Part shown: one piece after another, positions 10,878 to 38,434 of the stretch
How the letters are laid out: each line of letters starts with the position of its first letter
How positions within the stretch are numbered: the first letter of the stretch is position 1
From: Antedon mediterranea
Lineage: Eukaryota > Animalia > Echinodermata
NCBI RefSeq assembly: GCF_964355755.1
Contig: NC_092671.1
Span: 37,086,304-37,150,303 of the forward strand
Length of the DNA: 64,000 bases
Direction: 5' to 3'
Made by a program: the position numbers and the translations under genes
The notes under the pieces: generated by a model
What the model was told of the DNA's origin: nothing
The model's database searches: none
The model's input: the letters and a program-made list of their open reading frames with translations, nothing else

Positions 10878-13800
10878 ATGGCTTTAACAACTCCAAGAAA
10901 AGTAAGTTATGTTTCTAGAATTGTTATTTACAATTTACCTAATTGGATTCCAGAAATTAACAATTAAATATAGATATTATTATGTAACTATTGTTTCCAC
11001 AGTCAGCACCATACATCCCGTCGTGGCCTTTAATCCCCCCGGAGGAACCTTGTGTTCGATTCTTTCTCCTGGAATGGAATGCAACGGATCCCACTAATGC
11101 CGGAAGTATGCAGGAAGAAAAGGAAAGAGTAATGCAAGTATGGAATGAAATGAAAAATGAAGAGAAGGAAGTCTACTATAAAGAGTATGAACAGGATTTA
11201 GTAAGAACGCATTTAATTACCGTACTGACGCGGGTATAAGCCCATACTCGGGTATAAGCCCACCCCCGACTTTTGACTAATTTTCATGAAAAATGAGGCA
11301 CTCGGGTATAAGCCCACCCATTAATTCGAAGATCTACAGTGTGTGTCGTAATACATTATTTGTATTTGGCGACGTCCATACACCGAATACACCTACCTTT
11401 GATCATAACAAAGCTAAGCTAACATACGCTAGGCCATATGAGGCCTAGCGGTCCTGTTTTGTTTACACTCCATCGCGGTCGAAGATCGCTTCACACACGA
11501 CGCTACAAGTCGCCAAAACGGAAAACCACTATTTGGTATCGGCTGCCATAAACAAGCTTATTAAATTTCTTTGGTACATTTCTATTTAACGAACATTGTA
11601 TACTTGTTTTTCTGCTTGATAAATTCTTGTTCAATTGATGTTTAAAATGAGATATTCTACGATAAATTACACAAACTATAAGCTTAATTTTCCGACACTC
11701 TACACCTCGTGTATTTAGAGGCAACGTCGTACACGTGAGGGCGCTCGCTCGCATGGTAGAATACACAGTGTACATGTGCTGTTTTTGACGATCTGCATTT
11801 TTGGATCCTCGGGTATAAGCCCACCCCCCAAACTTGACGTGATTTCATGTTCGAGGGGTGGGCTTATACCTGCGTCAGTACGGTAATATAAAAAGGACAT
11901 TTCTATTCTTTGGGTTCTTGATATATGATATGTTTAAAAGGTCTTTTCATTCATTCATTCATTTATTTACACAAAGCAAAATTCAAAATTTCACACATGT
12001 TCCGACACGGTTCCAGTCCAACTTTGTCAAACCAAATCAAACGTCGATGTTTTGTTTGCCCATTACATCGATTGGTGCATAGCCCTGTGGATCATCATAG
12101 AAACAAAACATTGCTGTTCGATTTGATATGCCAGCGCCGGACCAGAACCAAGCCAGAATAGGTGTGAAAGACCTTTAAAGATGTATTAAATGTTTTAATG
12201 TCACATATTATAGTTAGTTTACCTCCGCCAAGGAGGTACTGTATGTAGTCGGTAGCGTGTGTTTGTTTGTTTGTTAGCAGAATTACTCAAAAAGTAATTA
12301 CACGATCTTTACCAAAATGAATATACAGATAGATATGTGGTCAAGGACCATTCCATTAAATTTTGGGACTATTTGGGACCATGGTCCCAATTCTGGACCA
12401 CTTTTTGAGTATACTTTTCAGACCTGCTAGTGTTAAAAGATAGGACAGAATTTTTCAAAAGCTGGCGAGCAGTCTTAAAGTAACAAGTAAACTGAAATTG
12501 CATTTTCTCGAGAACTACTTGTCCAAAAAACTTCATTTTTGTACAAGAGGCAAGAGTTATAATTTGTGATTTGTAATTTTAAAACATAATTTGATTTAAT
12601 GTGCACGTTTTTTTATGCGAGTAGTAAACCTATTTCTTTTCAAATTTACTCGTTTGATTTTTGCGTTGCTGTTCTATTGTTAGTCAACTGAAGCTATTGT
12701 TAATTAAAAGGCTTGTTACATATCCATTACACCAAACTCGCATACACATGCTTGTAGTGAAATTAGCCTCAATCACAAACAGCATTAAGACACGCACAAA
12801 TATATATATATGTATTTTTACCGGAGAAATCTTATGTAGGAGAATGTTACAGTAGACGGAGGTCGTAGGTATGCACTCTCTGAGTGGCTTTCTAGTTAGT
12901 TATATATTATAGTCCACTTTGACAAAAAGTGGGGAACAATGCATCTTTTTTTCAAGTCAAAGTTATTGAGAACATTTTAATTATGATTACAACAAGGAAG
13001 AAAGAGTATAAACCTATTGCTGAAATATTGCTGATTGATTGCATTTAAACTAATGTTATCTGTTCACAGACCATTTATTGGAGGATGCAAATGGTGATAT
13101 GTGGATGCCATACCTGTAGGCAAGAAATTCAAAGCCACAGTAGTAAGTAACTAAGTTATAATTGGTCACAAAATAAATGATAAATTTATAAATATTGCTA
13201 TTAATATAATGAAATAAATTATTGGTATATTATAAATGATTATAGTCTATTTTCAATAAACCAACGTTGGCCTATTCTCTCTGGGAAGAGAGCTACAACT
13301 CAAATACTGTACTGTATATAATATTTTATTAAACACCCCTATCAGATAGTGGTACATTCCATGAACCCTGCCCTTAAGTGGGAGCATCCAAACACCAAAC
13401 CATCATCATTATGATAGACATGGTAGAGGTAACAATTTGGCCCTCAGGCTTAAATTCTAAAATTAAGTCTGAATTTAACCTTCATTGGGCATTATTTACC
13501 TGAAAAAAAATGTAATTCAAAGCAAACAAATACCGTACTGACGCGGGTATAAGCCCACCCCCCTCGAACATGAAATCACGTCAAGTTTGGGGGGTGGGCT
13601 TATACCCAAGGATCCAAAAATGCAGATCGTCAAAAACAGCACATGTACACTGTGTATTCCACCATGCGAACGAGCGCCCTCACGTGTACGACGTTGCCTC
13701 TAAATACACGAGGTGTAGAGTGTCGGAAAATTTTAAGCTTATAGTTCGTGTAATTTATCGTATAATATCTTATTTTAAACATCAATTTAACAAGAATTTA

Positions 13801-16581
13801 TCAAGCAGAAAAGCAAGTATACAATGTTCGTTAAATAGAAATGTACCAAAGAAATTTAATAAGCTTGTTTATGGCAGCCGATACCAAATAGTGGTTTTCC
13901 GTTTTGGCGACTTGTAAATGTAGCGTCGTGTGTGAAGCGATCTTCGACCGCGATGGAGTGTAAACAAAACAGGACCGCTAGGCCTCATATGGCCTAGCGT
14001 ATATTAGCCTAGCTTGGTTATGATCAAAGGTAGGTGTATTCTGTGTATGGACGTCGCCAAATACAAAATAATGTATTACGACACACACTGTAGATCTTCG
14101 AATTAATGGGTGGGCTTATACCCGAGTGCCTCATTTTTCATGAAAATTAGTCAAAAGTCGGGGGTGGGCTTATACCCGAGTATGGGCTTATACCCGCGTC
14201 AGTACGGTACTTAAATTGTCTGTCAGACAATAATTTTTGGTTACAATTAACTGTTTCTTTTGTCTTTTTATAAGTGAAATACTGATTTTTTTTTGTTTTC
14301 TTTAAAAAGAAGTCAATAACTTATTAAAACTGCAAAATGGCCTATTCAAAGCCTGATTTTATTAATCTTCATTTTTCATGTTTTTTGGAACAAAACATCT
14401 TGAATTATTAATTTATTATTATTATTTGATTATTTATAGGTATACTTGATGTTACTCATTTTGTCAATAAGCTGAAACAAAGTCAGGATAGAAAAATTTC
14501 AAAAGAAAGACAAAAACCAAAGGTTGGAATAAATACAATTGAACATGGTGCTCAGGTAAAACAAAATCTTGTATCCACTTGTGAAGTCATAGCAAAATCT
14601 GTAAATTCTGTGGAACAAAATGTCCACACAGAAGAGCTGCAGCAAGTACCTCAACAATGGTACAAAAACAGCAATGAAAAATGTTGTGAAACTAATCAAA
14701 ACACATCGATAGAGTTTAAAGAGGAAATGCCGATTGATTTTCATTCAGAAACATGCAATACAGCGGAACATGGTTGTTTAAGACGTGAGAACAATTACTC
14801 TAAATTTGTTGATAAAAAAACTACCCAACTGATAAACATATCACCTGATAATAACTGTAAGTTACCACTGTCAAAAAATTCCAAAGAGAACAGTTCTGAA
14901 GTCAGTAATTCGTCTGTTGTGACACGTGGATACCCATTTACTACAACAAACTGTATGGATTTCTCTGATAATGAGTCTGATGTGTCAGAAGAAGTCTCTT
15001 TACAAGATTTAGTAAGAAACAATTCTTTTGTCTGATGATCGTTCAAGTCCCATTCACCAAGACTCTCCTGGCGCTTCCTGTCCATCAAACACAAGTGCAG
15101 AATTTTCTACTCACTTAATATGTTCTACCAACAGTGGTCTTTCAGTATTTCCTGCAGACTCTCTTGTAGCAGTTCCTTCAAAATCTCTTGTAGCAGTTCC
15201 TGCAGACTCTCTTGTAGCAGTTCCTTCAGAATCTCTTCTTGCAGTTCCTTCAGAATCTCTTCTAGCAGTTCCTTCAGAATCTCTTCTTACAGTTCCTTCA
15301 GAGTCTCTTCTTGCAGTTCCTTCAGAATCTCTTCTAGCAGGGATAGAAGGAAGTCATTTGCAGTCAAATTCAGAATTTTCTTCAAATTCTCATTTACCTA
15401 AACCATTGACTTCCAAAGATTTGCAATCTGCAACTGACATCTCCAATTCTCCAGTTGATCTTTTGACAGATTCTTTGAATAATGTGCTACTACCTGATGC
15501 TATGTCATGTCTTCCAATACCAGATTGTCATTTAGAGAGGTCAGTTCCATTAAATAAAGAAATTAATGATTTAAAACCAAATGAAGTTGAGTATTCAGAC
15601 ATTAAAAGGATTACCGTTGAAATGATCCTTAAAAAGTTGAGACATCTTAAGTCACAGGATGAGAAAACCCAAGTTGACAGTGGAAAGAATATTCCAGATT
15701 CAACAACAATGTCCGATGTTGACCACATAAAAAATGACATTGATAATAATTGGTCAGATTTTGCACCAATTAAGAATACCTTCACTCAATGCACTTGGGA
15801 ATTCTTCATTGAAAATGAGGCTAGGAGAAACTATAACAGAAAGGTGACTTTAAAATTACGTTGGAATTCAAAAGGCGGAGAACCTATTCGATGCGTCGAT
15901 AACAAAGGTGCAATATTAGACATACGCAGTATGCAGCCGTTTGTTAGATTAAAACAGTTAAAGTCGCTTACAACTCCCATTGTGCTAAAAACCTGTGATA
16001 ACAGTCCTCTTTCAAGAATAGGAAAAAAGAGACCACCGATATTTATACGTAAGAGCAGATTGTCAACGTTTCGTCAATTCCGTTCCAAAGAAAATGTAAT
16101 CCGACTTGGAAATAGACAAGTTATTGATAAACCTGTTGTTTGCAAGGTGTGTAATTTTGGTTTCGCAAAACAGGAAACTTTTAGAGTTCACATTGCTTCC
16201 TGCAGTAAACCAATTCATCTAAAGAAAGACAAAGCTTTAAAATCATTATTTGATTGCTTACCGTCACCAGTAGATAAAGACAAGAATTTAACCAGTATCG
16301 CACAACAATGTACGTTATGCACGGAAACATTCACTGATCGCGTTCAACTTAAGATTCACATGTTCACTGTTCACAAGGCACGTGTCTTGGAACACTTGCC
16401 AAATCGACCGTACGCATGTTCTATTTGCCCGAAGCGATTTAAAAAAAAGGGTCACTTAGTTGGACATGTGTGGACGCACATGCCACATGGATATAAGTGT
16501 AGTGATTGCAGAATGTCATTTCCGCGTCCTCATATACTTAATGGCCATATTAGAAAATACCACCGTACTGGAGTCCGATAG
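10878..16581 (+). CDS. HMG-box-like and C2H2 zinc-finger protein (apparent +1 frameshift at ~15027)
   Basis: Exons 10878-10901 (MALTTPRK), 11003-11200 (PPEEPCVRFF..VMQVWNEMKNEEKEVYYKEYEQD, HMG-box-like), 13070-13142 and 14440-16581. The last exon reads open to TGA at 15035, while the overlapping frame from 15028 carries C2H2 fingers (CTLC..H..H, RPYACSICPKRFKKKGHLVGHVWTH, YKCSDC..H..H). Confidence 0.75.
11220..11883. mobile_element. Non-autonomous Tc1/mariner (pogo/Tigger-like) element, copy A
   Basis: TIR CCGTACTGACGCGGGTATAAGCCCA, TA flanks at 11218-11219 and 11884-11885, internal repeats of CGGGTATAAGCCCACCC. Confidence 0.85.
12218..12897 (+). mobile_element. Helentron-associated (HINE/DINE-1-like) non-autonomous element
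   Basis: Starts TTTACCTCCGCCAAGGAGG, contains a (GTTT)n microsatellite, and ends with sub-TIR CGGAGGT, hairpin CACTCTCTGAGTG and CTAGTT. Confidence 0.6.
13533..14207. mobile_element. Non-autonomous Tc1/mariner (pogo/Tigger-like) element, copy B, inverted relative to copy A
   Basis: Same TIRs and TA flanks; body is a near-identical reverse complement of 11220-11883. ORFs 11503-11775(-) and 13570-13917(+) share their peptide for this reason. Confidence 0.85.
15151..15338 (+). repeat. Coding 24-bp tandem repeat (AVPSESLL-like, ~8 copies)
   Basis: GCAGTTCCTTCAGAATCTCTTCTT-like units inside the zinc-finger ORF. Confidence 0.9.
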
Positions 16582-16969
16582 AATTTCATATACGAGAGAA
16601 AAAATGAGACACAGAATGTGCAGAAGATAAATTTGTATTTGTTCATAATAAATAAAAACATTAGTCAGGACCAGACTCAAATTATATATACATATATATA
16701 TTTTTATTTAGCAACTACAGTAGAGTATGTATTGTTCTTACATACAACAAACAAACAGTATTCAAAATATTTTATTTATATCTATTTTACAATACATATA
16801 TGTATAGATATTAATATATAATTATTAATATATTAATATAAAGACATTTTTTAAAGAACTTTGCAAATTAAAGCAGTATCAGTATTTTATTATAGGCCTA
16901 TTTTAATCTTTTTAAATAGTAATTTATTAGCTATGTATAATTTTTGTAGTTAAAATTAAATTTGATTAG

Positions 16970-17276
16970 TTTATGATAAACTCAATATTGTTAAAATCTA
17001 TAATTAAGAAAGGTTTTTATTAGTACATGCTAATTAAATATAATTATTTTATGATAAACTCAATATTGTTAAAATCTATAATTAAGAAATGTTTTTATTA
17101 GTACATGCTAATTAAATTTAATTATTTTATGATAAACTCAATATTGTTAAAATCTATAATTAAGAAATGTTTTTATTAGTACATGCTAATTAAATTTAAT
17201 TATTTTATGATAAACTCAATATTGTTAAAATCTATAATTAAGAAATGTTTTTATTAGTACATGCTAATTAAATTTA
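16970..17276. repeat. 78-bp AT-rich minisatellite, ~4 copies, between convergent 3' ends
   Basis: GATAAACTCAATATTGTTAAAATC recurs at 16975, 17053, 17131 and 17209. Confidence 0.92.
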
Positions 17277-17629
17277 CATGTGTTCTTTTTTGCCATTTGG
17301 CGTACATTCTGTTAAAGAATTATACATTCTAAAAGGATACAATGTTACTGTAAGTTGCAGTATTTGATTAGTTTTGCCTTGAATTTGAAAAATTACTGTT
17401 ACTTTGTTATCTAGTATTATGTTTAGAATATTTAAATAAATTATGTTGACGTGTTAATTAGTTTTTAATGAGATACCTTGTATTAATTTAAAGAATTTAT
17501 TGATTTGTCTTTTAATTGATAATAATAAGCATTCATTAACTAGTATTTTACACCACCCAAACGATCACTTCTACAATGGTTGCGGTTACCACCCCAATTA
17601 TAGTACTGACTGCCACCACCATAATTGGA

Positions 17630-17860
17630 ATGCGGCCACCTCTGCTGCCACCACCCTAATTGCGACCACCTCTGCTGCCACCACCCTAATTGCGACCACC
17701 TCTGCTGCCACCACCCTGACTGTAGCCACCACCCCGACTGCCACCACCCCAACTGCCACCACCCTGATTGCTACCACCTTGCCTGTAACCTCCCTGACTG
17801 CTACCACTCCGATTGCTATTACCCCTACTTCTACCACCCCGACTGCTACCACCTCGACCC
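17630..17860 (-). repeat. Gly-rich 15/30-bp coding repeat (GGGSRGG..) spanning the RdRP-helicase stop codon
   Basis: GGTGGTGGCAGCAGAGGTGGTCGCAATTAG units on the - strand; the repeat continues past the TAG at 17688-17686. Confidence 0.85.
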
Positions 17861-20800
17861 CTTTTTCTCCTACCATGCTCAAAACTATCTCTTGTATCCC
17901 CCTGTTTCTCTGTCCTGATATTTTGTGATTCGCCAGCCTCTTCACCCCTTCCAGATTTGGTTGTAGACTCCATATCTGCTTCCGACACCATTGCATTCAT
18001 TTCTTTGACCCAATTAATCCAATGGCTCCACAGGGCACTACTCCTCAATGTACTTGCATTTCCAACTATGATTAAACCTCGTCGTGCCCGCGTTAACAAC
18101 ACATTAAAACGTCGTTCATCGTCCAGGAATCCTACAACATTACCAGGTAAATGGTTTTTTTGTGAGTATTACTTTGTTAAAACAATAAATTAATTTAATT
18201 TTTGTATAAAAGTGTTCAGTAATAATGATAAAATTATAACCATATATTCTTTTTTTTTATATTCATGCATCATAGTTTTCTTATATCCATTGTTGAATAG
18301 TTAAAATGTACTAACCAATAAATTGATCTTTATTCGACCGAACAGCAGAAAATATGATCACTTCTCTTTCCTGTCCTTGAAAACCATCCACAGTGCGGAC
18401 GTCAATTTTCTGTTTGAGTGTTTTCTTGATTAAATTAACCTACGTACCAGGTATGAAAACTTACATTAGATAGATCAAAGCAATCTATTGGATACATTTG
18501 TGTTCTGTTTATGTTTCAGGTCAAAGTTTACACAAGTCAAAGGTCAACTGGTTGAGAAATTTAAATTAATAGCATATACGCATGTTGTGTTCAATTCGAA
18601 TGCAAGTTATACTACATTATGTAAGTACAGCATATATTTTTCTATCACATTGTGATATGTATTATTTTGTACCTGAGCTGTATATGGTGATATGATCCCT
18701 ATTTCACTTTCCTTGATCTGTTTTGCGTTTAACAATCCAGCAACAAGTGTCTTGATGCGGTTGGCTTCATCAATATTAGACTTAGAAGAACCTGTCGTCA
18801 TTTCTTTACTCTACAATTGAAAGTAAAACATGCTAAAGTGTATAGAAGACTACACAAAAAGTAAGTATCGTATATATCCTCGAGTATAATCCCACTTCGG
18901 GTTCTAATCCCACCTTATACTTTATGTCTGATTTCACAAACAGGCATATCCCCAGGTAGAGTCGGTCCCAGTATTAACCTTTGATCTAGATGTAGGCCTC
19001 TCTCTAGCCAGTTTAGATGAGTTTTTACAAGAAATGGTAAACAATAATTTTTTTTTTCTGAACCAGGCTTTCCCTGGTACAGTCTCGCTGATCGGCCCAA
19101 TTTCGTGTTAAGTGGAATTATAGCAGAGGATATACGGTAGTACAAGAACATAAAGACGATGTATTTCATTTTTCAAGTTTTTTAGACATTTAGTAGACAT
19201 TGACAATCACAATACTACTTAAAAGCAAGTATGAACAGAGTATGATACAATGAAATCAAAATAGTTGTTCTTTGCTTTTGTTACAAGAGAGTTCTTTGTA
19301 CTAATAGCTTTTGAATTATATTACCTTAATATCTAAGAAGATTATAGGCTGGCCTTTTTCGTGATAAGGAAATCCAGACGGAAGAGGTCTTCTTTTTGCC
19401 TCTACTCCGTTCAGTAGTTTGCTATCATAAAATTTCAGAGATGGGAACTCTGCGAGCTTTGGATGCATTCTGTACTGGGTGTTCAGAAGATGTGTTGGGA
19501 AGCTCCTTCTTAACCTTTATGCAATAAATAAAATGTATTATTTTTTGTTCAAATCAATAAAAGAATTCTAAACTCTGTCTACACTATCAAATTTTATGTG
19601 ACAAAAATATATGATGTAGCCATATATGGACATGATGATGTCATATCACTACACATAATGGGCATACAGTATCACTATCATACAGTATTTGGGCACATCA
19701 CACTTTTTTGTCAAACTAGTTAAGTTTGATAGTGTAGACAGAGCTTAATCATTTTCTATGTCGTTTACATGATTAGAAGACATTAGAATTTCATATGAGA
19801 ACATTTCAAATATTTACCTTTCAAATATAGACATTTTGAGATTGTCTGCATTAGAGCTCTTCACCAGTGGAGGTAGTTGTTTGTCATCTCCAACAAGACA
19901 TAATCGTATGCAGCCATATTGCAGCGGCACTATGGCTGCTGGTTCTGTAGCTTGTGACGCCTCGTCCATCAGAACATGTGGGAAATGTTGGTCTGTCATA
20001 TAGCCTACACCCGCCCCAATACAGGTAGTGAAAACGATCTACGAAATTGAAACAGATATTTGATCTATTGAATGGTTAAATCAACTTATAAGCTAAAAGA
20101 TCCACAATGAATAGTTAGTATTTAAGCTCTGTCTACACTATCAAACTTGATGTGACAAAATAATGTGCCCATATATGGACATGATGATGTCATATCACTA
20201 CCATATTTAAACATATCACTACCATATTTGGGCACATACTTCTTGTTTTTTATCAAACTAGTTTGATAGTTGAGAGAGCTTTACAGTACCTTAGCCCGAT
20301 GTATAATATCTTTTGCAACAGCAAAGTCCATCTGCATAGCATGCATCTTGTGTCCTCCAGCCGAGTACTTTGCCTCAAGAGTTATGCGTTTCATATCGTC
20401 AGTCACTTTACTAACGTTTCCAATTCGAACCATATCATCTGGAGATATGAAACCAAGTGTTAACACTTTCATAATCAAGTTATTTACGCCCTCGTTTGTT
20501 TCCGCACATGCTAGAATCGGTTTAGAATCCCAGGTGTCCACCCATCTCTTGATAATCTCAGTGGCAGTAAATGTCTTTCCAGTTCCAGGTGGACCTTGGA
20601 TGATAGTTATCCCATCATTCATTGCAGCATCGACTGCTTCCATTTGGCTTTCATTCAGGACTCTTGCCTCACCCCTTTTTGCTGGTTTACGACGTGTAGA
20701 CGAGGCAGCTCCAGAAACAGCTGATTGTTCTAAAGTGTTAGAATTATCTGGAACTTCTCTTTCATGTTCTGGTTGTTTTGCATTGTCTGCATTTACGTCT

Positions 20801-23800
20801 GAATGATGAAATTCTGGTGAGATTTCTGATGCGATTGGACAGGTTTCCTTAACGGTATCACTTGAAAGAGCACATATATTTTTCAGAGCATCTATCATGC
20901 GTCTATATGAGACAAGGCTGGCAAATCTGTCAACACGCCAGTAGCTGTTGCGTGGGACATCTTGAGCGGTCAACTCATCTGGCGACGAGCCAACTTTACA
21001 GATGAGATTAACCTGAATCATAAGACCTTTAAAGAACAGAAAACATAATTATTAAATATAAACTCACTCAAAGGCATAAAAGAACTCTAAACCACCTGGT
21101 GATATAATGGAAATTAATTACTTTTTTAAATGTTAAGGTGAGGAAATCTGTGAGGATAAAAAAACGAATAAAAAAAAAAAAAAATTCTTTGAGAATGAGA
21201 AAAATCTGACCCAACCGAGAATTGAACCCAGAATGTTCTGCTTGCAGACTTCCTACTATTAGACCACTGGGACTTTCATATGCATACATTTGAGACAAAA
21301 ATCATTAATTTACTTATACAGCAACATGTACGTAGACCTACTAAAATACCAAAGTCACAAAATCATAATAGAAATACATGCAAGATATTATGTCACAGGA
21401 TACCTACCTGTTCTTTTTGATTGCACGCATTCAGCAAAGTATTTTGGTTGAAACAGCAGGTTTTCATCCATTTGATGAGATGGAGTAAGTGCCATGCCAT
21501 CTTGAGGCAAAAACGTCTGACGTGGAGCCTGAATGTTCAACCATCTTGCCAGCTTGCTTTCTGGGAAGGCATGTGCTTTTGAGAAATTGTCTGTGTTGAT
21601 GGCAGTCTTCTTAAACACCTTGGCTTCCTCTAAGACTTCTATTGTCAAAAGACTGGTCCATCTAAGAAAGTATGTCTTGGCACCTTCCGTTTTGAAATCA
21701 GTTGGATCCAACGGAAATAAACCTGAAAACAAATTTACTTTTATATCAAAAACTTTTTAAATTATTTTATCTATTTCTACAGTACAATATTTTAGTAACA
21801 AACTGCTGTTAATATTAATATTGGGCCAGATACAGTCAACTCCCCCAAAACCGGAAAATCTCCCAAAGGTCCCAAATTCCTTTTTACCATTAAAAACACG
21901 TTCTGAATACCAGACTTTCCAGAAAACCAGACATATTTGGCCAGCCTAAAGGTGTCGGCTTTTTGGGAGAGTTGACTGCATCGTGATAATTATCATTACA
22001 TTAGCTCTTTATACCTACCAATCTCAAATTGTTTGAGAAGATCCACAGAATGTGTTTCCACTGCATTCCCATAGATCAATAGCTTTAGGAAATTTACATA
22101 TGTGGCTACTCGAAAAAATGTACATTTTCTCTCCATGCTTTCCAAAAACCTGGAAATCATAATATTATTAAATAATAATATTTCAGGACTTGTATTTTTA
22201 AAATTGTAGGTGTTCTACAAATTGCCTACACTATCAAACTAGTTTGACAAAAAAGGTGTGAAGTGCTAAAATATGTAGTGATATGCCCAAATATGGTAGT
22301 GATATGACATCATTTTTTGTCACATAAAGTTTGATAGTGTAGGGTAGACAGAGCTTAATAAATGTGGTGTTTGTATCATAAAAAGTGTAAAAGTTTGCCA
22401 AATTTAAGTGTGATGTAATTTGCACCACCTTAAAGGTCAAATTGGCACATGACCTTTCTAGATTTTTTTAGTTTTAATGATTATAGGATATAGAGCAATC
22501 TCCATATACATCTGTACTTATTTCTCCATGGAATAAATATTGCCAACAAAGAATGTAAGAATGTGCACAGCAGTAACCTTGATGTCTTTGGTACAGCAAA
22601 ATTGCGTTCCATTGCAAGAAAGCAAAGTAACTTGTAATACGGGTCATCAGTGTAGTCATTGCTCAGTTTGGCATTTGTTTTCGAAAAAAGTATTTCTGTA
22701 TAACTTGCTATGTAAGCACCATTCTGAAAAGAACACAGTTCAGTAACAAATTAAACTAACTGTGCAGTTGTTGTATACATTTGTAGGTCTATAGGCGGAC
22801 CCCCCCCCCCCCCCCTCTCAAAAATGTCTGGATCCGACCCAGATAGCTAAACTTTGTCTCCCCCTCCCAATTTTCACAAACTCTCTGTAGTTTTTTAACA
22901 ACCCACCTCAGAGTCTCCCTCAGCCATTGCAAAAAATTCCTGTAGTTGAGAATCCAGTAAAGTTTCATTGTCTGCAAAAACCTTCAATTCATCAAACTTC
23001 TTATCAACCTCGTCAAACCAGGTCTTTTTGTGTTCAGTATGTTGTGAATGAGAAACCACTGGAAAATCATCTTCATTGTACTCAAATTCTGGAACTTCAG
23101 AATCATTTAGAACTGGTTCTACATCCGGAGGATCTGTATCTGCTATGTAATATGTCGGTAACATTCTAATGTCTGTATACCCTAAAAATAATTCACAAGA
23201 CATTACAGGTTCCCGTCTTAGATACGCATTACGATGTCTACTCTTAAACCCAGTGGAGAAATTCTGGAGGGCGACGCTCATTACTGTATGTCCATTTTCT
23301 TCCATGATGTTAATGAACGTGTTTCCTGTAGATTGATCAGCTGGATAGATTTGCAGCCTGCTACGGCGTACAAGCACTGCTTGGATAAATTGGCCTTTAT
23401 CAACTATGCAGTTCTCTGATTTGAAACCGTGGATGGAAACAAACGCCCTCAAACCAGGAGATGTCGTTGCATCATTAGACATTTGCGATAGTTCAAGTGC
23501 TCCGGGTATAAGAATAGTTATTATCCATATTCCACCGAGGTCAAACTTGCAGATCAGTAATTTTGGAAGATCTTCAGCAACTTTGCTTATTATTTCTTCC
23601 CAAGAAAATGATTCTTGAGTATGGTCCGCCATAGTGTACATCAAAGACCATTTAGTAGGGGATATTTCGGAGTCAAGAGTAGCAATATCTTCTTGAGACA
23701 ATATAGACGAGTGATTGAGGCCTGAATGTTTTGCTTTGATTACGTCTGTGCTATCTGGACAATCAACCATTGCAAGATCTCGCTGCAATCTGGTGAACGT

Positions 23801-26800
23801 TTTAAAGTCGATCAACTGACAAAACTCTGAAAGAAGATCCATTTTGTCATTCCTACAGCACCACTTAAACATCATTCGAAACAGTTTAAAATTGTCGGCC
23901 GGCCAGTTGTTGCTTCGTAATAAAGAAGAAATTGTTTTTTCGTCCTCGTTCATAAGATCATGTGACAGTATAGTAGATTTTTCACAAATTTCTAGATTGT
24001 ATCGTATCATCAGAAGCTGTATGATTCCACTTCGTTGTCGTTGCAGTATGTTGCTATCGCCCTCGTAACAATGTTCTGTTCTTACCTCATCACCTGCTTT
24101 GTAAACAAGTGAAGCGGCCTCTTTAAATGTTTTATATTCTTCTGAGTTCTCCCCATATTCTTCCATCATCTCCTTTTCAATTTTGGAGATACTGTCTTTC
24201 GTTTCACCACTCAGTAATTTCGCGTTACTCACCATTTTTTGACAAATAAATGCATTTTCTTTTGGACGGCCAACTTTTAACAAGCATTTTGGAATAGTAA
24301 CATTTTCACCAGTTTTTGCTGAATCAATTGCATGGTTGAATAGGTTAGCCAGGGCCATGCATTCTGGTGAATCAATTCCACCCATGTCTGCCCATTTTTC
24401 AAGTAGATTTGAGAATCTTGCCACCAGTCTGACATCATATCTAGCAAAGTAATCTATGAGATGTGTTGTGGTTATATTTGCTTGCGTTTTTGCCTTACAA
24501 CCTTAAAAGACAAACATTTAACAAAATCAGTAAACCGTTTCATTCATTATATTCACTAATAGATTCACTTCGTGACTTGTTATGCTATTGTTATTTTACT
24601 ATTTATACTGGGTAGCCTCTTTAGTCAAAGACTGGTCTCCTAGAGGGCGCAGTTATGATCAGTGGCTGTGTGTGTCTCTTTCGCGATGTACGAGGTAACC
24701 CCTATTCATCTCGAAAGATGTACTGTACTAGGTTCTTTTAAGTGCACAGGACCTATGTTTTATAGTCTTTATCCGAGAAGACATTTGTGAATGTCAAATG
24801 TGAATATCTATAGAAGTATGTTACCAGTACCTTGATATGATGTTGGTTGCCAGTGCGTTTTTGGAACCAGAGTTGGATCCCAACAAATCAAGTATTTATC
24901 TCCATCCAGGTCACTTCCAGCAATTTCATCGCAATGGGGTCGGCTGCCTATAACATAATTTGGATTCAAACTAATTAGAATTTGTGTGACATGCGGCCAT
25001 ATACTACTATACCATAATATAAAACATACTGTACTACTTATATGAGTAACCAGTAACAAAACATCACTCTTTTAAACGAAATATAATTACTTGGTAATGG
25101 TTCGTGTGCTTACCTTTCACTGGGAAGACTACACAGTCAACAAGATGTCTGATGTGTTTGTTATCCACACAATTAAGTATCCTAATATCGCCAGGATAAT
25201 AACTTGGGCTCTTTGCGACAAACACTCTACCCTTTATTACCTGTGATTTTCCACGTATAGTCGGTTGAAAAAACACTGTTCCTTCCTCAAGGGTCTCGGA
25301 GATGTCGCATACACCAAAGACGTTACGCGACATCTCTGCTCGAATATTGAGGCCTTCAGCTTTAGATTTCTTGATTCGTTCCAGCTTATCAGAAGCACCG
25401 ATTTTTCGGTCATCAAATACTTTTCTTCGAATGCTCTTCAAAACCTCTCTGATTTCTCTACTAGAGCAGTAATCACCTCCCTCTGTTGCTATCACCTTCT
25501 CTGCAAGGTCACTCCGCCCATTGATATACAGATGTTTTACTGCTATCCACTTGTCTTTTTCCAGATTTTGCAGTTCATCAAAGAATGTTGTCTGAAGCTT
25601 TAGGAACGCTTTATCAGGAATGCCCAAAGCTGAAAGAATTCTGATAAAATGCTTTATGAGGTTACCATACGCATATGGTTTGGCGATACCATCGTCGACC
25701 ACTCCAAGAATGTGTGGCTCAACCAGCTTCCATGAAAATTTCTCCTGTAAGACAAATACATACATCAATACAAGCAGAAAGTCAATTTTTCATGATTATG
25801 TAAACTATACTATACATTATTATACAAATAATGAATATTCATGAGTGGGTCATTAAATAGTATGTACTATTCCATGCCATAGCGTACATCAATACAAGTA
25901 GAGAGTCAATTTTTCATGATTATGTGCACTACACTATACGAGTGGATCGTTAAATAGTGTGTACTATTGCACACCATGTGACACACAATCAAATGACAGA
26001 AATTTATTTAGGTGTTTTATATAATATACAAATAATGAATTTTTATGAGTGGATCATTAAATAGTGTGTCTATTGCATGCCACCAAATCAAATGACATGA
26101 ATTTATTTGTTTCAAACCTATACTATTAGGCTGTATTATCACTGCTGTATAATGTATACTTACCAAAGAGTCCCTTAGCTTGATTCCTTTTTGGAGTTTT
26201 GGATCCACAACCAATACACCTTTACATCCTTTCAGTCTAATTTGGAAGACTGAGGGTACTGGTGGGTACTGGTTCTTGTATAGCTCTGTTAGACCCTTTG
26301 ACTCTGCAACCCTCATTGCGCATTCAATCGATATTGTTCCGCATCCATCCGTAAAGTTATACCCATCTCGTTCAATATCGCCTTCCTTTGAGATTTCAGC
26401 ATCTTTCAATCGGAGGACTTCGTTTGCGGTGGAAAGTAACAACCCAATGCGTGCAGCCCGCTTAGCAACATTATTGATGCTACTGAAGTCTCCAAACAGG
26501 TTGATGATATCATTGAGGTTCCCTAGCTTCTCGTTGTACATATAACACGTTCGATTCCTAAGTTGGGAAGAACTGTGTCCGAAAAACATGTACCGAGAAG
26601 GGCTGGTTTTTTTGTTGCGGTAACTTACAAGTAGTCCATTTGACAGACATTCAAATAGTTCTTGTCCCGGAAGATCAACATGAACATGAAGGACTAAGAA
26701 GTCACGATGGTTGAAGTTTGGATGTCTAAACAGGTTACACATCTTTAATTCACTTCCTTCTGGATGCGGATCAAGGACGAAATCTTCACAAGTCAGTTTT

Positions 26801-26958
26801 GGTCGTTTAGACGGTGGCGGTATTTGAATTTTTTGGGGTTTACGTAAAATATCTACAGATTTCATTCGCTTTTCTGATTCTGCTCGAAATTTTAAAGAGT
26901 CCGTTTTGATACGACTCATTTCAACAGCATTCTTTGAAATTTTGGCCACAGACGCCAT
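17686..26958 (-). CDS. RNA-dependent RNA polymerase (eukaryotic cellular RdRP) fused to a Upf1/DNA2-NAM7-like SF1 helicase with Gly/Arg-rich C-terminal tail, ~1881 aa
   Basis: 13 GT-AG exons with matching phases: 26958-26164, 25744-25114, 24947-24831, 24501-22907, 22723-22518, 22149-22019, 21722-21408, 21026-20290, 20038-19818, 19514-19325, 18810-18673, 18439-18316, 18131-17686 (5646 nt). RdRP motifs: [70 protein letters not shown]. Helicase motifs: [54 protein letters not shown]. Confidence 0.9.
24595..24785 (-). mobile_element. SINE-like dispersed repeat (related copies ~30670-30855, ~32420-32620, and + strand ~57330-57550)
   Basis: Shared core GTAACCCC..TCTCGAA(A)GATGTACT..AGGTTCTTT(T)AAGTGCAC..TTTATAGTCCTTATCCGAGAAGAC. 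The 57330 copy has a degenerate tRNA-like head. Confidence 0.6.
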
Positions 26959-28500: not shown

Positions 28501-29044
28501 GTGTTATACGAAAAGTAACTTTTGTTAGGCCTAGTTTTTAGTATAAAAATAAGTTGTAACACGTTGATGTTGTAACAAGATACGTATCCTGAGATAGTTT
28601 ATCTTTAGAGTACGTTATTACTACTAATAACTTGTTATTTAATTATACGTAACATGCTGGTGATGATAATTAATGTTTAGTGCGTGAGAGGGAATTTAGG
28701 TACTTGCACTGGCTGGCAGTGTCTGTAGGTACCTGGATGAAAGGTCTCGCACGCCTGTATGTATGTGTAGAGGTCACCTTGCTTGTGCAGTGAGGGCCTA
28801 GGCTAGCTATTAAAAGATTGTTCTCTGACCTAAAAACTGCTGCAAAACATAGATAAATTATTCCCCTTTTTACTCCCACCATGATACTCTTTTATTGTAA
28901 TTTTCTATGAAATAGTGTGTGGCTACCTTGTTTTTAAGTTCATAATTATTAACATAATAATTATTTTGTAATCAATTCAAAACGACAATTAAAATTTTAA
29001 AATTTATTTACAGAAAGCAATTAGAACTAGGACCAAGTAAAACA

Positions 29045-34127
<5,083 letters not shown>

Positions 34128-35385: not shown

Positions 35386-37251
35386 TTAACTAGATTCTTC
35401 TGCTTTTATTAGTGTAAAAGGAGGGCCTAGATATTTTAAGCCTGCAACACATCCATGGAAACATAGTCCTTCTGGCATTGATGTCTCCCCTGACCACTTA
35501 TCAAGAACAGGGTCAAAAGATTCAACTTTTTTTACATGTTTCTGAAGCTCGCCGCCGGTCACAAAGATCTTTCTACCGACAACTGCTGCAGACGGACAAT
35601 TGCGTTTGTATCTCATTGGGTTAGCTGTACACATGGACATCATCTTGGGATCCAACACTGTCACCTCTTTCATTGTACAGTTACCCATAAGATACAGGTT
35701 CTCATTTAAAGAAACGGCAGGAAACATTGCTCTCGTCATACCAGATGTTAAGATCACATTGCATTCTAAAGTGTCCAGATCAAAAACTTGAACGGAACAG
35801 ACTCGAGTGAAACACAAAGGGCCTATGATGTATAGCTTATTACGCATGGCCGCTAGACTTGCGTTACTGTTTGTTGGATTAATATGTCCGATGATCGACC
35901 AAGATTTGACCTCTGGGTCATACACCTCGATACTCGTTAATGTGTTGTTGTCATCTTCACCGGCTACTACGTAAATCTTCCTGTTGAAACTCGTAGAAGC
36001 ATGATTGCACCTTGCCCTTTGTAAGCCTGTGACTTGTTGCCATTCGTTTTTCACTAAAGAGTATTTCCAAACATGGTCGCACACATGTTCCTCGTGGAAA
36101 CCACCGATTACATAAATATCTTGATTGACGGAAGTGACGCTGTAATCTGTGTGCGAGAACGGAAGTTGCGTAAGGTTGTACCAACAGGCTTCATGGTAAA
36201 ATATAACATCTTTTTTCCATTTTCTGTCAGAGGTCATACCGCCAACAACTATAAGTATATTGTGAAGCATTGATGGTCTTGGATATCTGACCAGCTTCCC
36301 CTTAACTATCATCTCCTGAAGATTTAAAGCCTCCTTCACCATATCTTTACATTCCTTAACAGCTATAAAAGCAAAATTGGATTTCAGAATATCGTTTATA
36401 ATTGACTTGTCAACGAATTCTAGCCTCACACATTCTAAGACGGATTTAAAACATTTGGCTCTCTGCGGTTCAAAGTTGACCCATTTTATACATGCCTTTA
36501 AAACGGAGTCTTCTTTACTAACGTACAGTCTTTTATCGGATACTAACTGGACTAGCTTGTCTTCGCTTATGGAAAGAAACTCTTTTGTTAGTGAAATTTC
36601 GTTGAATTTGACCAAGATATAATCCCAGGCTTCCGACATCAGGTTCTGTTGGCTGTATGAATCTGCAATTTGATGGATTCTGAGACAGTTGGACGGTTGT
36701 AGATGCGTCATCAGAAAAGATTCACATTCTGCAACGAGCCTAGGGTACTGTAGAAAACAAGCAGTCGCTAATAAGTCACCTGCCGTCGACAATTTGATCT
36801 CAATTTGTCCTAGGTACAAGTAGTCGATGATTTTCCCCAGCATGTCTGCTTTAACATCATGGAGATCAATAACGCTTTGAGAACTTTCTCGTAAATCGTC
36901 GAGGAACATAGCTTGAAAGAACGGACTGCTTGCAGCTAGGATGCTTTTGTGGCAGTGGATCATCAGGTCTCCAGATTGCAATACAACATCTGTCAATTTT
37001 CCAAGTTTTCTTTGCTCCTGTAAGACCAGCAAAAGGTCTGTGGCAAGGGGTTTGTTTGTGAAAGTAATAGTAGCGCCATGGTCCATGTAATGGTCTTCTA
37101 GCGTATTGCCACATTGTATGCCTTTTTCTTCTTCATACACTACGGTATCTTTGTGTGTTATTGCTTTGTACTCTATAGTTGTTCCATGAAACCCCTCCTC
37201 CTCCACTATGAGAGCAATGTCACTGCATTCTATTTCTAAAGCTGCTGCCAT
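35386..37251 (-). CDS. Kelch-like protein (BTB-BACK-Kelch), single coding exon, 621 aa
   Basis: BTB (LTDVVL..HCHKSILAASSPFFQAMF..LRES), BACK (FLSISEDKLVQLVSDKRL..EDSVLKACIKWV) and about 6 Kelch repeats (VVGG, VIGG, VVAG, VTGG..W). A splice acceptor lies just upstream of the ATG (~37268). Confidence 0.95.
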   Translation of the reverse strand: MAAALEIECSDIALIVEEEGFHGTTIEYKAITHKDTVVYEEEKGIQCGNTLEDHYMDHGATITFTNKPLATDLLLVLQEQRKLGKLTDVVLQSGDLMIHCHKSILAASSPFFQAMFLDDLRESSQSVIDLHDVKADMLGKIIDYLYLGQIEIKLSTAGDLLATACFLQYPRLVAECESFLMTHLQPSNCLRIHQIADSYSQQNLMSEAWDYILVKFNEISLTKEFLSISEDKLVQLVSDKRLYVSKEDSVLKACIKWVNFEPQRAKCFKSVLECVRLEFVDKSIINDILKSNFAFIAVKECKDMVKEALNLQEMIVKGKLVRYPRPSMLHNILIVVGGMTSDRKWKKDVIFYHEACWYNLTQLPFSHTDYSVTSVNQDIYVIGGFHEEHVCDHVWKYSLVKNEWQQVTGLQRARCNHASTSFNRKIYVVAGEDDNNTLTSIEVYDPEVKSWSIIGHINPTNSNASLAAMRNKLYIIGPLCFTRVCSVQVFDLDTLECNVILTSGMTRAMFPAVSLNENLYLMGNCTMKEVTVLDPKMMSMCTANPMRYKRNCPSAAVVGRKIFVTGGELQKHVKKVESFDPVLDKWSGETSMPEGLCFHGCVAGLKYLGPPFTLIKAEESS

Positions 37252-38434
37252 TGTCTCTTAACAATTTCCTAAAAAATAAAATTAAAACAACATTTTATCC
37301 ATATTGCTTTATTTCATCAGCAGATCCAGTGGGTAGTGCAAGCTCCCCTTTTGACAGCCTTTTTAATATATATTTAATACATCTATCTATATATCTGAAT
37401 AGCATTTCTTTAATCTTACTGACGACATGCATTTTGGTTTACCAACCCTGACTGAATGATCACATATACAAAATAATATATCATAAATAAACACAATTAC
37501 ATTTAGCAAAAGTTAATAAACAGGAAACCAATACAGTACAGGCAAAAACCATAAGGACAATACTCCACCTGTCTGATCTACTCTAGTTGTATGCGATTAC
37601 CCCATTTAAATAGTTACCGGCGGCGGGGTACACCCATTCTGCAGACTACATTATTATGTGCACATCACATCCAGGGGTCAGTTGTCAGCACATCATTTGC
37701 AGCAGCAGTGATAATGGGTTGACCTAAACAGCGTTATGGTTTCATATATAACGATGTACATATTTCATTTTTAGCCTAAGGTCCTTTATAAACAACGTTT
37801 ACGTGGGTACGTGCACTGTACCTCAGTTGTCATACCTACCTTGTTTAGTAAAGATCAATTTTGTTAGGAAAATTAACAGGGCTGCTTCTTGTCTCCAGGC
37901 CATTTGTTTATGTTAAATTGCGCCCTCAAACGATACAGACAGAAAGACGATGTTCAATACATTTATTATCAGAACCGCGTTCTGTGACGTACTACTTCAA
38001 TTATACGGTAGTCATATTAAATAGGCCTTATACGTTATAGGATTCAATATGTCGACAATCGCTCTACAAACTGCAACCAAACTGAAGCTTGTAAATAAAT
38101 GAAAGTTATTTTTATTTTGACATATTTTATTTAATAAAAAAAACACGAAATATTAAGTACACGATTCGGCATCACCATTTTTTAGGGTCATATGCTGCAT
38201 ACCGTACAATTGTTTTAAAATGTTCAAATTCAAATAGAACATAGACAGCTAGTTGGCCTTCCTTCTATATGAATTGTAAGACAAAACAATATGCATATTA
38301 TATAAATGAAAACTAAAACTTGAACACAAACGCAACACTAAAGGATTGCGCTTTTTTGCAGCTACGCACATCCTTATAAAAATGCTCTTATGAATGCAAG
38401 TTATGTTTATTCCTTTGAGTGGTAATTATAATGT

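What the first reader, a model, noticed from the sequence alone, without database searches (positions are those of the whole stretch)
17686..26958. Single-gene fusion of a cellular RdRP with a Upf1/ZNFX1-class SF1 helicase in an animal genome
Seen: 13 exons splice in frame into one ~1881-aa ORF running RdRP (intact DLDGD metal-binding loop), then an unassigned middle region, then a complete SF1B helicase (motifs I-VI intact), then an RGG tail. No stop or second start separates the two halves. The introns carry the same host MITEs as neighbouring genes, so this is an integrated host gene rather than contamination. Established: cellular RdRPs amplify small RNAs and are patchily distributed in animals (absent from vertebrates and Drosophila). 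In several systems they work with a separately encoded Upf1-like SF1 helicase: S. pombe Rdp1-Hrr1, Neurospora SAD-1/SAD-3, C. elegans EGO-1/ZNFX-1, Arabidopsis RDR6/SDE3. Inference: this locus hard-wires that partnership into one self-contained dsRNA-synthesis/siRNA-amplification enzyme, possibly antiviral or anti-transposon. I recall similar RdRP+AAA_11/AAA_12 architectures among uncharacterised predicted proteins (e.g. fungi), so the architecture may not be unique, but I know of no functional characterisation in this kind of animal.
Basis: partly seen in the sequence, partly recalled or inferred. Interest (0 to 1): 0.88.

Follow-up and report, generated by a model that had tools for sequence, protein, structure and literature searches.

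The report
Feather-star RdRP-TLDc-helicase fusion gene
A feather star carries an intact 13-exon gene that likely makes one protein joining an RNA-copying enzyme to an RNA helicase; the design is ancient and already described in a fungus, but its middle holds two domains (predicted BACK and TLDc folds) that we did not find reported, and it likely serves RNA-based defence.

Summary
The gene is real. Thirteen GT-AG exons splice into one open frame. One donor is corrected from RNA contigs (22578, not 22518), giving 1861 aa. Exon 4 is identical to a RefSeq model of the crinoid Antedon mediterranea. RNA contigs join exons 5-9, but the exon 4/5 junction was seen only unspliced; relatives support the fusion across it.

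The fusion is not new. It belongs to one RdRP clade found in sponges, cnidarians, molluscs, rotifers, amphioxus, fungi, green algae and a dinoflagellate; 81 of 82 homologues of 1600 aa or more carry the helicase. Fusarium FgRdRP5 has the same layout and has been knocked out; amphioxus BL02069 was noted in 2019. The window's copy sits in an animal clade, so vertical descent is likely. The helicase is Upf1-like SF1B without ZNFX1 or UPF1 zinc domains.

New here: the 'unassigned middle' folds as BACK plus TLDc (Z 14.8), a module found family-wide and absent from the papers searched. Most likely the enzyme makes dsRNA or antisense RNA for defence. Nematode-style siRNA amplification is doubtful, since amphioxus and Nematostella show none.

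The parts
26164..26958 (-). Exon 1, aa 1-265: start ATG, short N-terminus (no AAA_28 kinase), first part of the RdRP domain
25114..25744 (-). Exon 2, aa 266-475: RdRP
   Evidence: partly covered by an X1 contig
24831..24947 (-). Exon 3, aa 476-514: RdRP catalytic loop
24898..24912 (-). DLDGD metal-binding motif, aa 488-492
   Evidence: DLDGD in 120 of 120 listed homologues
22907..24501 (-). Exon 4, aa 515-1046: end of RdRP, helices, BACK-like, TLDc-like, acidic linker, start of a helical domain
23723..23971 (-). BACK-like helical domain, aa about 692-774 (predicted fold)
   Evidence: KLHL11 4ap2 Z 9.3, rmsd 1.6 over 83 (helical, so modest); KBTBD2 E 0.41; family profile hits the window's own Kelch-BACK protein at E 0.005-0.014
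23177..23734 (-). TLDc-like domain, aa about 771-956 (predicted fold)
   Evidence: Foldseek E 1.7e-5 to NCOA7 TLDc, 11 of 11 hits at E<=0.001 are TLDc proteins; Z 14.8, rmsd 2.9 over 158, top 6 rows all TLDc proteins
22724..22906 (-). Intron 4 (phase 0). Position matches an intron inferred in coral-like relatives. Seen only unspliced in the one RNA-like run; if retained, the frame stops three codons into the intron (after aa 1049)
22578..22723 (-). Exon 5, corrected (146 nt; donor at 22577, not 22517); helical domain
22019..22149 (-). Exon 6: helical domain (aa about 1001-1137 overall, no fold assigned)
21408..21722 (-). Exon 7: stalk helix and start of the 1B beta-barrel of the helicase
20290..21026 (-). 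Exon 8: end of 1B, disordered linker, RecA1 with Walker A GPPGTGKT (20572-20595)
19818..20038 (-). Exon 9: motif II DEASQ and motif III; the RefSeq model P0002 stops here
19325..19514 (-). Exon 10: QYRMHP motif, AAA_12
18673..18810 (-). Exon 11: AAA_12
18316..18439 (-). Exon 12: motif V (VDGFQGQE)
17686..18131 (-). Exon 13: motif VI, RG/RGG low-complexity tail, stop codon; AATAAA/ATTAAA sites at 17516, 17501 and 17469
   Evidence: RG-rich tails in 31 of 82 long homologues
19557..19750 (.). MITE-like repeat in intron 9 (same family in intron 8, about 20120-20270, and intron 5, about 22211-22360); boundaries approximate

Best explanation
This is an intact crinoid host gene of the ancient RdRP-helicase family typified by fungal FgRdRP5; it likely makes one 1861-aa chain (RdRP, predicted BACK and TLDc domains, helical domain, Upf1-like helicase, RG tail) that likely copies single-stranded target RNA into double-stranded or antisense RNA for RNA-based defence. 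Shown: exon structure, open frame, motifs, family membership, joint descent of the two enzymes. Predicted: the BACK, TLDc and stalk/1B folds. Inferred steps: the helicase loads on a target RNA and moves 5'->3' (established for Upf1-like SF1B helicases, from my own knowledge), clearing structure and proteins and bringing the polymerase to the 3' end. The polymerase then copies back along the template. The product likely feeds Dicer or dsRNA sensors (RLR type) rather than becoming a large pool of short triphosphate secondary siRNAs. The RG tail likely binds RNA or granules, and BACK-TLDc likely serves as a protein-docking module. My odds: one polypeptide 0.92; both enzymes active 0.85; this defence role 0.5.
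For: Frame and motifs. One chain: RefSeq joins exon 4 to exon 5; homologues are colinear over the whole length, across intron 4; 86 of 120 listed homologues, and 81 of the 82 of 1600 aa or more, carry the helicase. A 982-aa gene call on a 1.1-Mb contig is 97% identical to a 1764-aa protein on a 5.9-kb contig up to the column of intron 4, then diverges, so the ~960-aa forms are best read as read-through into an old intron. A sponge transcript ORF is labelled complete (P0041). Joint descent: 26 of 28 strong RdRP splits recur in the helicase tree and 29 of 32 the other way, on 79 of 121 rows with both cores. Function by relatives: deleting Fgrdrp5 lowered exon-antisense small RNAs from 27.3% to 18.9% and 5'-U 21-25-nt reads by about 32% (PMC11237814). 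Three Nematostella RdRPs are induced by poly(I:C), and knockout of RdRPa1 was reported at a meeting to lose viral-load control; whether any of these belongs to this family was not tested.
Against: No RNA contig bridges exon 4 to exon 5; the one contig there reads through intron 4 unspliced. No small-RNA or infection data for crinoids were seen. In amphioxus, whose BL02069 has RdRP + AAA_12 and an intact active site, no siRNA-like population was found, and the authors note that short breakdown products of long RdRP products might have been expected too. The Fusarium phenotype is developmental (ascospore maturation and discharge) and the small-RNA effect is the weakest of three RdRPs; its authors allow that it is secondary to the developmental defect and raise rRNA processing or NMD. 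The helicase could instead strip the product strand; the order of steps is untested.
Confidence: 0.5

Rival explanations
1. Classical amplifier of secondary siRNAs: the fused helicase replaces Hrr1, SAD-3, ZNFX-1 or SDE3 and the enzyme makes abundant amplified siRNAs in some tissue or stage.
For: Fgrdrp5 contributes to Dicer-dependent exonic siRNAs. The RdRP is closest in the PDB to plant RDR2. The separate RdRP-helicase partnerships are established (SAD-3 and Hrr1 are named in PMC11237814; the others are recalled).
Against: No siRNA population in amphioxus. No secondary siRNAs by three methods in Nematostella.
Confidence: 0.2
2. Housekeeping or developmental RNA processing (surveillance of aberrant RNA, rRNA maturation, germline or spore development) rather than defence.
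For: The Fgrdrp5 mutant affects ascospore maturation and ribosome-biogenesis genes. The helicase is closest to UPF1 among solved structures. Amphioxus RdRP genes are dynamically transcribed without siRNAs.
Against: Animal RdRPs are patchily kept and often lost, one amphioxus RdRP gene is absent in half of individuals (family not tested), and several paralogous lineages exist. This pattern suits defence genes better.
Confidence: 0.15
3. The TLDc domain anchors the enzyme to the V-ATPase on endosomes or lysosomes, so that it meets incoming viral RNA there, in the manner of the interferon-induced NCOA7-AS.
For: TLDc fold kept family-wide. All five mammalian TLDc proteins tested bind V-ATPase (PMC8608904). 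NCOA7-AS restricts viruses that enter by endocytosis (PMC8329711).
Against: The surface glycine needed by NCOA7 (G815) seems absent. No column at aa 806-815 is more than 21% Gly in 118 family rows, and the approximate G845 position is at most 9% Gly. The mapping comes from range ends and recalled consensus, not from a residue-level alignment. Identity to known TLDc domains is 7-17%. The domain is internal.
Confidence: 0.1
4. Two products from one locus: intron 4 is often retained or an internal start is used, giving an RdRP-BACK-TLDc protein and a separate helicase, with little full-length chain in this species.
For: The X1 contig holds unspliced intron 4 joined to spliced introns 5-7. The Anneissia models are incomplete: one lacks the equivalent of exons 5-8, one has no helicase.
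Against: No AATAAA/ATTAAA in intron 4. RefSeq splices it. The intron position is old and is spliced in a relative. One low-depth contig may be pre-mRNA.
Confidence: 0.05

Closest known systems
Fusarium graminearum FgRdRP5 (FGSG_09076; PMC4515635, PMC11237814)
   Same: RdRP followed by a C-terminal helicase (1277-1478) and AAA_12 (1475-1677), on its own branch among fungal RdRPs. A Podospora protein of 1699 aa with AAA_12 at 1480-1670 lies in the same clade as the window's gene and aligns with it over RdRP (33%), middle (22%) and helicase (37%).
   Different: FgRdRP5's own sequence was not fetched, so orthology rests on layout. The window's gene is in an animal sub-clade. The passages read call the helicase DEAD-like and mention no BACK or TLDc.
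Branchiostoma lanceolatum BL02069 (Pinzon et al. 2019, PMC6396948)
   Same: Complete RdRP with intact catalytic residues plus AAA_12. B. lanceolatum P0007 is colinear with the window's protein (47% RdRP, 31% over the rest).
   Different: Identity of BL02069 with P0007 was not checked. The paper does not mention a helicase (0 occurrences of the word) and found no siRNAs.
Separate RdRP-helicase pairs: S. pombe Rdp1-Hrr1, Neurospora SAD-1/SAD-3, C. elegans EGO-1/ZNFX-1, Arabidopsis RDR6/SDE3
   Same: Cellular RdRP working with an SF1B helicase (partly recalled; SAD-3 and Hrr1 named).
   Different: Two genes, not one. Canonical RdRPs fall outside the family clade and lack BACK-TLDc. The fused helicase lacks NFX1 zinc fingers and scores lower to ZNFX1 (1e-25) than to UPF1 (2e-43). 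None of these helicases was available for a tree.
Dictyostelium RrpA-C and oomycete/cnidarian DEAD-box RdRPs (PMC4791657)
   Same: A helicase and an RdRP on one chain.
   Different: Their helicase is an N-terminal SF2 DEAD-box type; here it is a C-terminal SF1B type.
TLDc proteins (NCOA7/NCOA7-AS, OXR1, mEAK7, TBC1D24, yeast Oxr1p/Rtc5p)
   Same: Predicted fold of aa 771-956; the terminal Glu of the last strand is 97% conserved in the family (its match to NCOA7 E938 is approximate).
   Different: 7-17% identity, below Pfam detection; internal position; V-ATPase-binding glycines apparently missing.

Membership tests
Cellular (eukaryotic) RdRP, PF05183 | Pfam RdRP above the curated cut-off | tested here: met
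   344 bits against a cut-off of 23.8, aa 122-589
Cellular (eukaryotic) RdRP, PF05183 | DxDGD catalytic loop | tested here: met
   DLDGD at aa 488
Cellular (eukaryotic) RdRP, PF05183 | RNA-templated RNA synthesis | not testable with these tools
   needs a biochemical assay
RdRP alpha/beta/gamma clades (Zong 2009) | Placement with named reference RdRPs | tested here: inconclusive
   Closer to RDR2 (5e-90) than to QDE-1 (1e-23) but a separate clade from the unnamed canonical RdRPs. No named references were in the tree, and Pinzon's Fig. 2 could not be seen.
FgRdRP5-like RdRP-SF1B helicase fusions | RdRP near the N-terminus, AAA_11/AAA_12 at the C-terminus, about 1650-2000 aa | tested here: met
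FgRdRP5-like RdRP-SF1B helicase fusions | RdRP domain in one clade with the fungal fusions | tested here: met
   79 of 79 BACK/TLDc-positive rows on one side of a 0.996 branch, with 5 of 37 other rows and 7 of 9 short rows; 23 family rows against 7 canonical rows, SH-aLRT 99 (quick tree)
FgRdRP5-like RdRP-SF1B helicase fusions | Direct sequence match to FGSG_09076 | not tested
   sequence not fetched; Podospora P0347 used as a stand-in
FgRdRP5-like RdRP-SF1B helicase fusions | One transcript spanning both enzymes in this species | tested here: inconclusive
   exons 5-9 joined; intron 4 seen only unspliced
Upf1-like SF1B helicases | Motifs I-VI and AAA_11/AAA_12 | tested here: met
Upf1-like SF1B helicases | Stalk and 1B barrel before RecA1 | tested here: met
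   model pTM 0.78; Z 29.1 to UPF1 (rmsd 6.3 over 328) and 29.2 to SETX (rmsd 4.6 over 356), tied; Foldseek E 1.8e-19
ZNFX1 orthologues | NFX1-type zinc fingers after the helicase | tested here: not met
   the helicase is followed only by a short linker and the RG tail; no such Pfam hit listed for 15 family proteins at E<=1 (two lists cut at 25)
UPF1 orthologues | N-terminal CH zinc-binding domain | tested here: not met
   no UPF1 zinc-domain hit listed; the stalk is preceded by an all-helical domain
TLDc domain | TLDc fold | tested here: met
TLDc domain | Pfam TLD sequence match | tested here: not met
   none listed for 15 proteins at E<=1
TLDc domain | Glycines needed for V-ATPase binding (NCOA7 G815, G845, G896) | tested here: inconclusive
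   no conserved Gly at the approximate G815 and G845 positions; 24-56% Gly near the G896 region; no residue-level alignment was available
BACK domain | BACK fold and sequence pattern | tested here: inconclusive
   best match to KLHL11 at Z 9.3 against 6.4 for the next helical match; weak sequence support; no Pfam hit; no BTB domain precedes it

The most novel reading that the evidence does not exclude
A large share of animal RdRPs outside nematodes belong to an unnamed pan-eukaryotic class of single-chain RNA-defence machines ([AAA_28 kinase]-RdRP-BACK-TLDc-helical-Upf1-like helicase-RG tail) that work outside siRNA amplification. They would turn foreign single-stranded RNA into dsRNA for innate sensors, with the hidden TLDc module placing the enzyme at endolysosomal or defence complexes. 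This would explain why amphioxus and sea anemones keep intact, dsRNA-responsive RdRPs yet make no secondary siRNAs.
Probability: 0.2. Interest if true: 0.85.

Novelty: new member of a known kind. Interest (0 to 1): 0.48.

Why it matters
What RdRPs do in animals other than nematodes is an open question (PMC6396948 calls it an enigma). This locus shows that many of them are members of one old multi-domain family with a built-in helicase and a BACK-TLDc module that Pfam misses. The family is hidden by truncated gene calls and by names such as 'UPF1'. Knowing the domain map makes the question testable by single-domain mutants in Nematostella or amphioxus, and links animal RdRPs to the one fungal member with a knockout phenotype. 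The crinoid gene by itself is an ordinary member.

Tried and rejected
Donor 22518 for intron 5: rejected.

Contamination or recent fungal transfer: rejected. Host repeats lie in the introns, DNA runs of the same organism cover 30 of 30 bins, and the RdRP sits in a 9-row clade whose named members are all animals (SH-aLRT 99), apart from the fungal and algal rows (a quick tree, the careful search did not finish, and no AU test was run).

Stand-alone ~960-aa RdRP-TLDc proteins as a real short form: read as intron read-through, shown directly for one pair only.

A neighbouring AAA_28 kinase gene, as earlier notes report for fungi: none in 1962 six-frame segments of the window (best E 0.48); the rest of the genome was not available.

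Placing the helicase in a tree with UPF1, ZNFX1 and MOV10: not achieved. The search for shorter proteins returned family fragments and then mainly SMUBP2/HCS1-type helicases, many archaeal, at 35-40% (only the 7994 best-sharing candidates were scored; 120 of 974 listed).

No fold was assigned to the helical domain at aa 1001-1137 (it was not folded alone). No RNA holder was listed on record, and missing cover at 22916-22999 in X1 is no evidence either way. The ESM Atlas gave no answer. No complex was predicted, as no V-ATPase subunit was at hand.

The negative control for the BACK and TLDc profiles (0 of 135) is partly circular: its 26 RdRPs were picked after one search showed no hit. The other 109 rows are helicases.

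Literature: 'TLDc' with 'RNA-dependent RNA polymerase' gave 2 papers, and at least 3 of TLDc, RdRP, helicase and BACK domain gave 5, of which 4 were listed. I saw listings only; none concerns this family by title or abstract. Two look-ups of a recalled RNAi review found nothing held, so that review and other subscription papers may mention the architecture. PMC4182546 and bioRxiv 2024.12.19.629480 added nothing on the fusion. Pinzon's supplements were listed but not opened; they may bear on clade placement.
Full report
Observation. Splicing the 13 exons by coordinates gives 12 of 12 GT..AG introns and one frame of 1881 aa with no internal stop. Pfam places RdRP on exons 1-4 and AAA_11/AAA_12 on the exons of the 3' half. 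DLDGD is at aa 488, Walker A at 1388, DEASQ at 1514 and motif VI at 1720 of the corrected model. Exon 4 is 100% identical to a RefSeq protein of the crinoid Antedon mediterranea (P0002), with two relatives in Anneissia japonica. The repeats in introns 5, 8 and 9 recur throughout the window. The gene is a host gene.

RNA evidence. One run, guessed to be RNA by the tool, shows spliced contigs. A 727-nt contig joins introns 5, 6 and 7 (only 26 letters lie beyond intron 7) and another joins intron 8. Intron 5 uses the donor after 22578, as RefSeq does, so the protein is 1861 aa. Equal-depth contigs suggest that introns 9 and 12 are spliced too, against the RefSeq model, which ends at exon 9. The same 727-nt contig runs through intron 4 unspliced and ends at 22894; its 52-nt gap is also in DNA run X4, so the gap is an allele. 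The junction that carries the fusion is therefore not shown by RNA in this species.

The fusion across intron 4 rests on relatives. A search with the RdRP region gave 434 proteins; 120 were listed. Of these 86 carry the helicase, and 81 of the 82 of 1600 aa or more. Amphioxus, coral and rotifer proteins align over the full length, including exons 5-7. The many ~960-aa proteins end at or near the column of intron 4. For one pair this was checked: a 982-aa call on a 1.1-Mb contig is 97% identical to a 1764-aa protein on a 5.9-kb contig up to that column. I infer an old intron inside one gene. Trees of the two enzyme cores agree: 26 of 28 and 29 of 32 strongly supported splits are shared, on the 79 of 121 rows with both cores long enough. 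The enzymes have been inherited together.

Breadth. Named members include sponges (Oscarella, Ephydatia, a Geodia fragment), cnidarians, rotifers, limpets, bivalves, an acoel, amphioxus, three fungi (Podospora, Diversispora, Phellinidium), two green algae and a dinoflagellate. From the 150 best hits of a wider search plus added rows, 125 of 154 had a long enough RdRP domain. All 79 that carry the middle module lie on one side of a 0.996 branch, with 5 of 37 rows lacking it and 7 of 9 rows too short to tell. A quick IQ-TREE run on 30 chosen rows gives the family SH-aLRT 99. It puts the window in a 9-row clade (99) with sponge, coral, limpet, rotifer and amphioxus rows, apart from a fungal-algal clade (95) and a second animal clade (99). 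Both animal clades include a sponge, which favours vertical descent and an early duplication; the tree is unrooted and had no bootstrap. Many members of the second clade carry an N-terminal AAA_28 kinase-like domain (55 of 120 rows); the window's clade has none and none lies in the window.

The middle region. A model of exon 4 (39 sequences, mean pLDDT 72.8) matches TLDc domains at aa 771-956: all 11 Foldseek hits at E<=0.001 are TLDc proteins, and the six top structural matches are too (Z 14.8, rmsd 2.9 over 158). Just before it, aa 692-774 matches KLHL11 where a BACK domain is expected (Z 9.3, rmsd 1.6 over 83); this is a helical match and less secure. Profiles built from the 34-row alignment of close relatives find the BACK-like part in 79 of 85 and the TLDc-like part in 83 of 85 other homologues. 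Retrained profiles find them in the fungal and green-algal members too, and the TLDc part weakly in the dinoflagellate. Pfam lists neither. A second model shows an unassigned helical domain (aa 1001-1137), then the stalk, 1B barrel and RecA1 of a Upf1-like helicase; UPF1, SETX and Sen1 are tied at the top. By sequence UPF1 ranks first and ZNFX1 well below. No zinc domain of either was found. The glycines that NCOA7 needs to bind V-ATPase (PMC8608904, passages) appear to be missing at the approximate positions, so a V-ATPase link is doubtful.

What is known. FgRdRP5 of Fusarium was described with this layout in 2015 (PMC4515635, passages). Its deletion reduced ascospore discharge to 47.6% and modestly lowered exonic siRNAs (PMC11237814, passages and section 21). 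Amphioxus BL02069 was noted as RdRP + AAA_12 with an intact site, and no siRNAs were found in that animal (PMC6396948, passages). Nematostella RdRPs are induced by poly(I:C) (PMC8476169, passages), yet no secondary siRNAs are made (PMC12768352, passages). A meeting report says that RdRPa1 knockout loses viral-load control (PMC12172373, one passage). I did not test which Nematostella genes belong to this family. Bdelloid RdRPs form divergent clades (PMC7943196, passages); bdelloid proteins are among my hits, so those clades may be this family (untested). I also read passages of PMC12373286, PMC8329711 and PMC4791657. Two searches found no listed paper that, by title or abstract, links TLDc to an RdRP. 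Earlier scan notes describe the fungal family and a springtail copy, and a Naegleria RdRP with a TLDc tail; none of the summaries shown mentions the internal module.

Mechanism. The most likely reading is one enzyme in which the helicase moves 5'->3' on a target RNA, clears it and delivers the polymerase to the 3' end, from where it copies back to give dsRNA or antisense RNA for Dicer or dsRNA sensors. Every step after the domain map is inferred; helicase direction is from general knowledge of the class. I give it 0.5, classical siRNA amplification 0.2, a housekeeping or developmental role 0.15, V-ATPase tethering 0.1 and a split product 0.05.

Verdict. Observation confirmed with one splice correction; interpretation partly supported. 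The gene is a new member of a known, little-studied kind. The added value is the family-wide BACK-TLDc module and the link between animal RdRPs of unknown function and a fungal gene with a phenotype. Interest 0.48.

Noticed in passing
window 11211-14216: Element of about 3 kb with inverted arms of about 650 nt at 97-99% complementarity; likely a young non-autonomous DNA transposon.
   Followed up: no
window 38435-39826 (-), 43073-44392 (+), 51106-52408 (+): Three fucosyltransferase (GT10) genes. The last two are a recent duplication about 8 kb apart (94-97%), and the third copy is split over two frames near 51833-51891.
   Followed up: partly
window 35386-37257 (-): Single-frame BTB-BACK-Kelch gene; used as a check for the family's BACK profile.
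   Followed up: partly
window 14430-16581 (+): C2H2 zinc-finger gene tail-to-tail with the fusion gene, in two overlapping frames at 15016-15035, with a 24-nt coding repeat.
   Followed up: no
window 28961-29290 (+) and 6015-6464 (+): Exon fragments that look like sulfide:quinone oxidoreductase (head-to-head with the fusion gene, about 2 kb away) and pyruvate dehydrogenase kinase. Both names are recalled; neither had a Pfam hit at E<=0.001.
   Followed up: no
window 4917-5816, 16876-17343, 56218-57237: Tandem arrays with units of 75, 78 and 36 nt.
   Followed up: no
P0001, P0002, P0003, P0136: Public models of this family are faulty or misleading: the Antedon model ends at exon 9, one Anneissia model skips the equivalent of exons 5-8, another holds two RdRP halves in tandem, and an amphioxus member is named UPF1.
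   Followed up: partly
P0364, P0390, P0410, P0339: Family members with no DxDGD match though the RdRP profile spans the site; possibly polymerase-dead versions, three of which keep kinase and helicase.
   Followed up: no
P0060, P0079, P0098, P0394 and others: A second animal clade carries an N-terminal AAA_28 kinase-like domain, the kind of gene that earlier notes report as a head-to-head neighbour in fungi; some members add CCCH zinc fingers.
   Followed up: partly
P0149-P0257: The best stand-alone matches to the family helicase were mostly SMUBP2/HCS1-type helicases, several named as Poseidoniales or other Euryarchaeota, plus an unnamed group of about 1200-1300 aa at 39-40%.
   Followed up: partly
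window 22724-22894: Intron 4 is polymorphic (12- and 52-nt gaps in X1; the 52-nt gap also in DNA run X4) and retained in the one RNA-like contig; retention would give a helicase-less RdRP-BACK-TLDc protein.
   Followed up: partly
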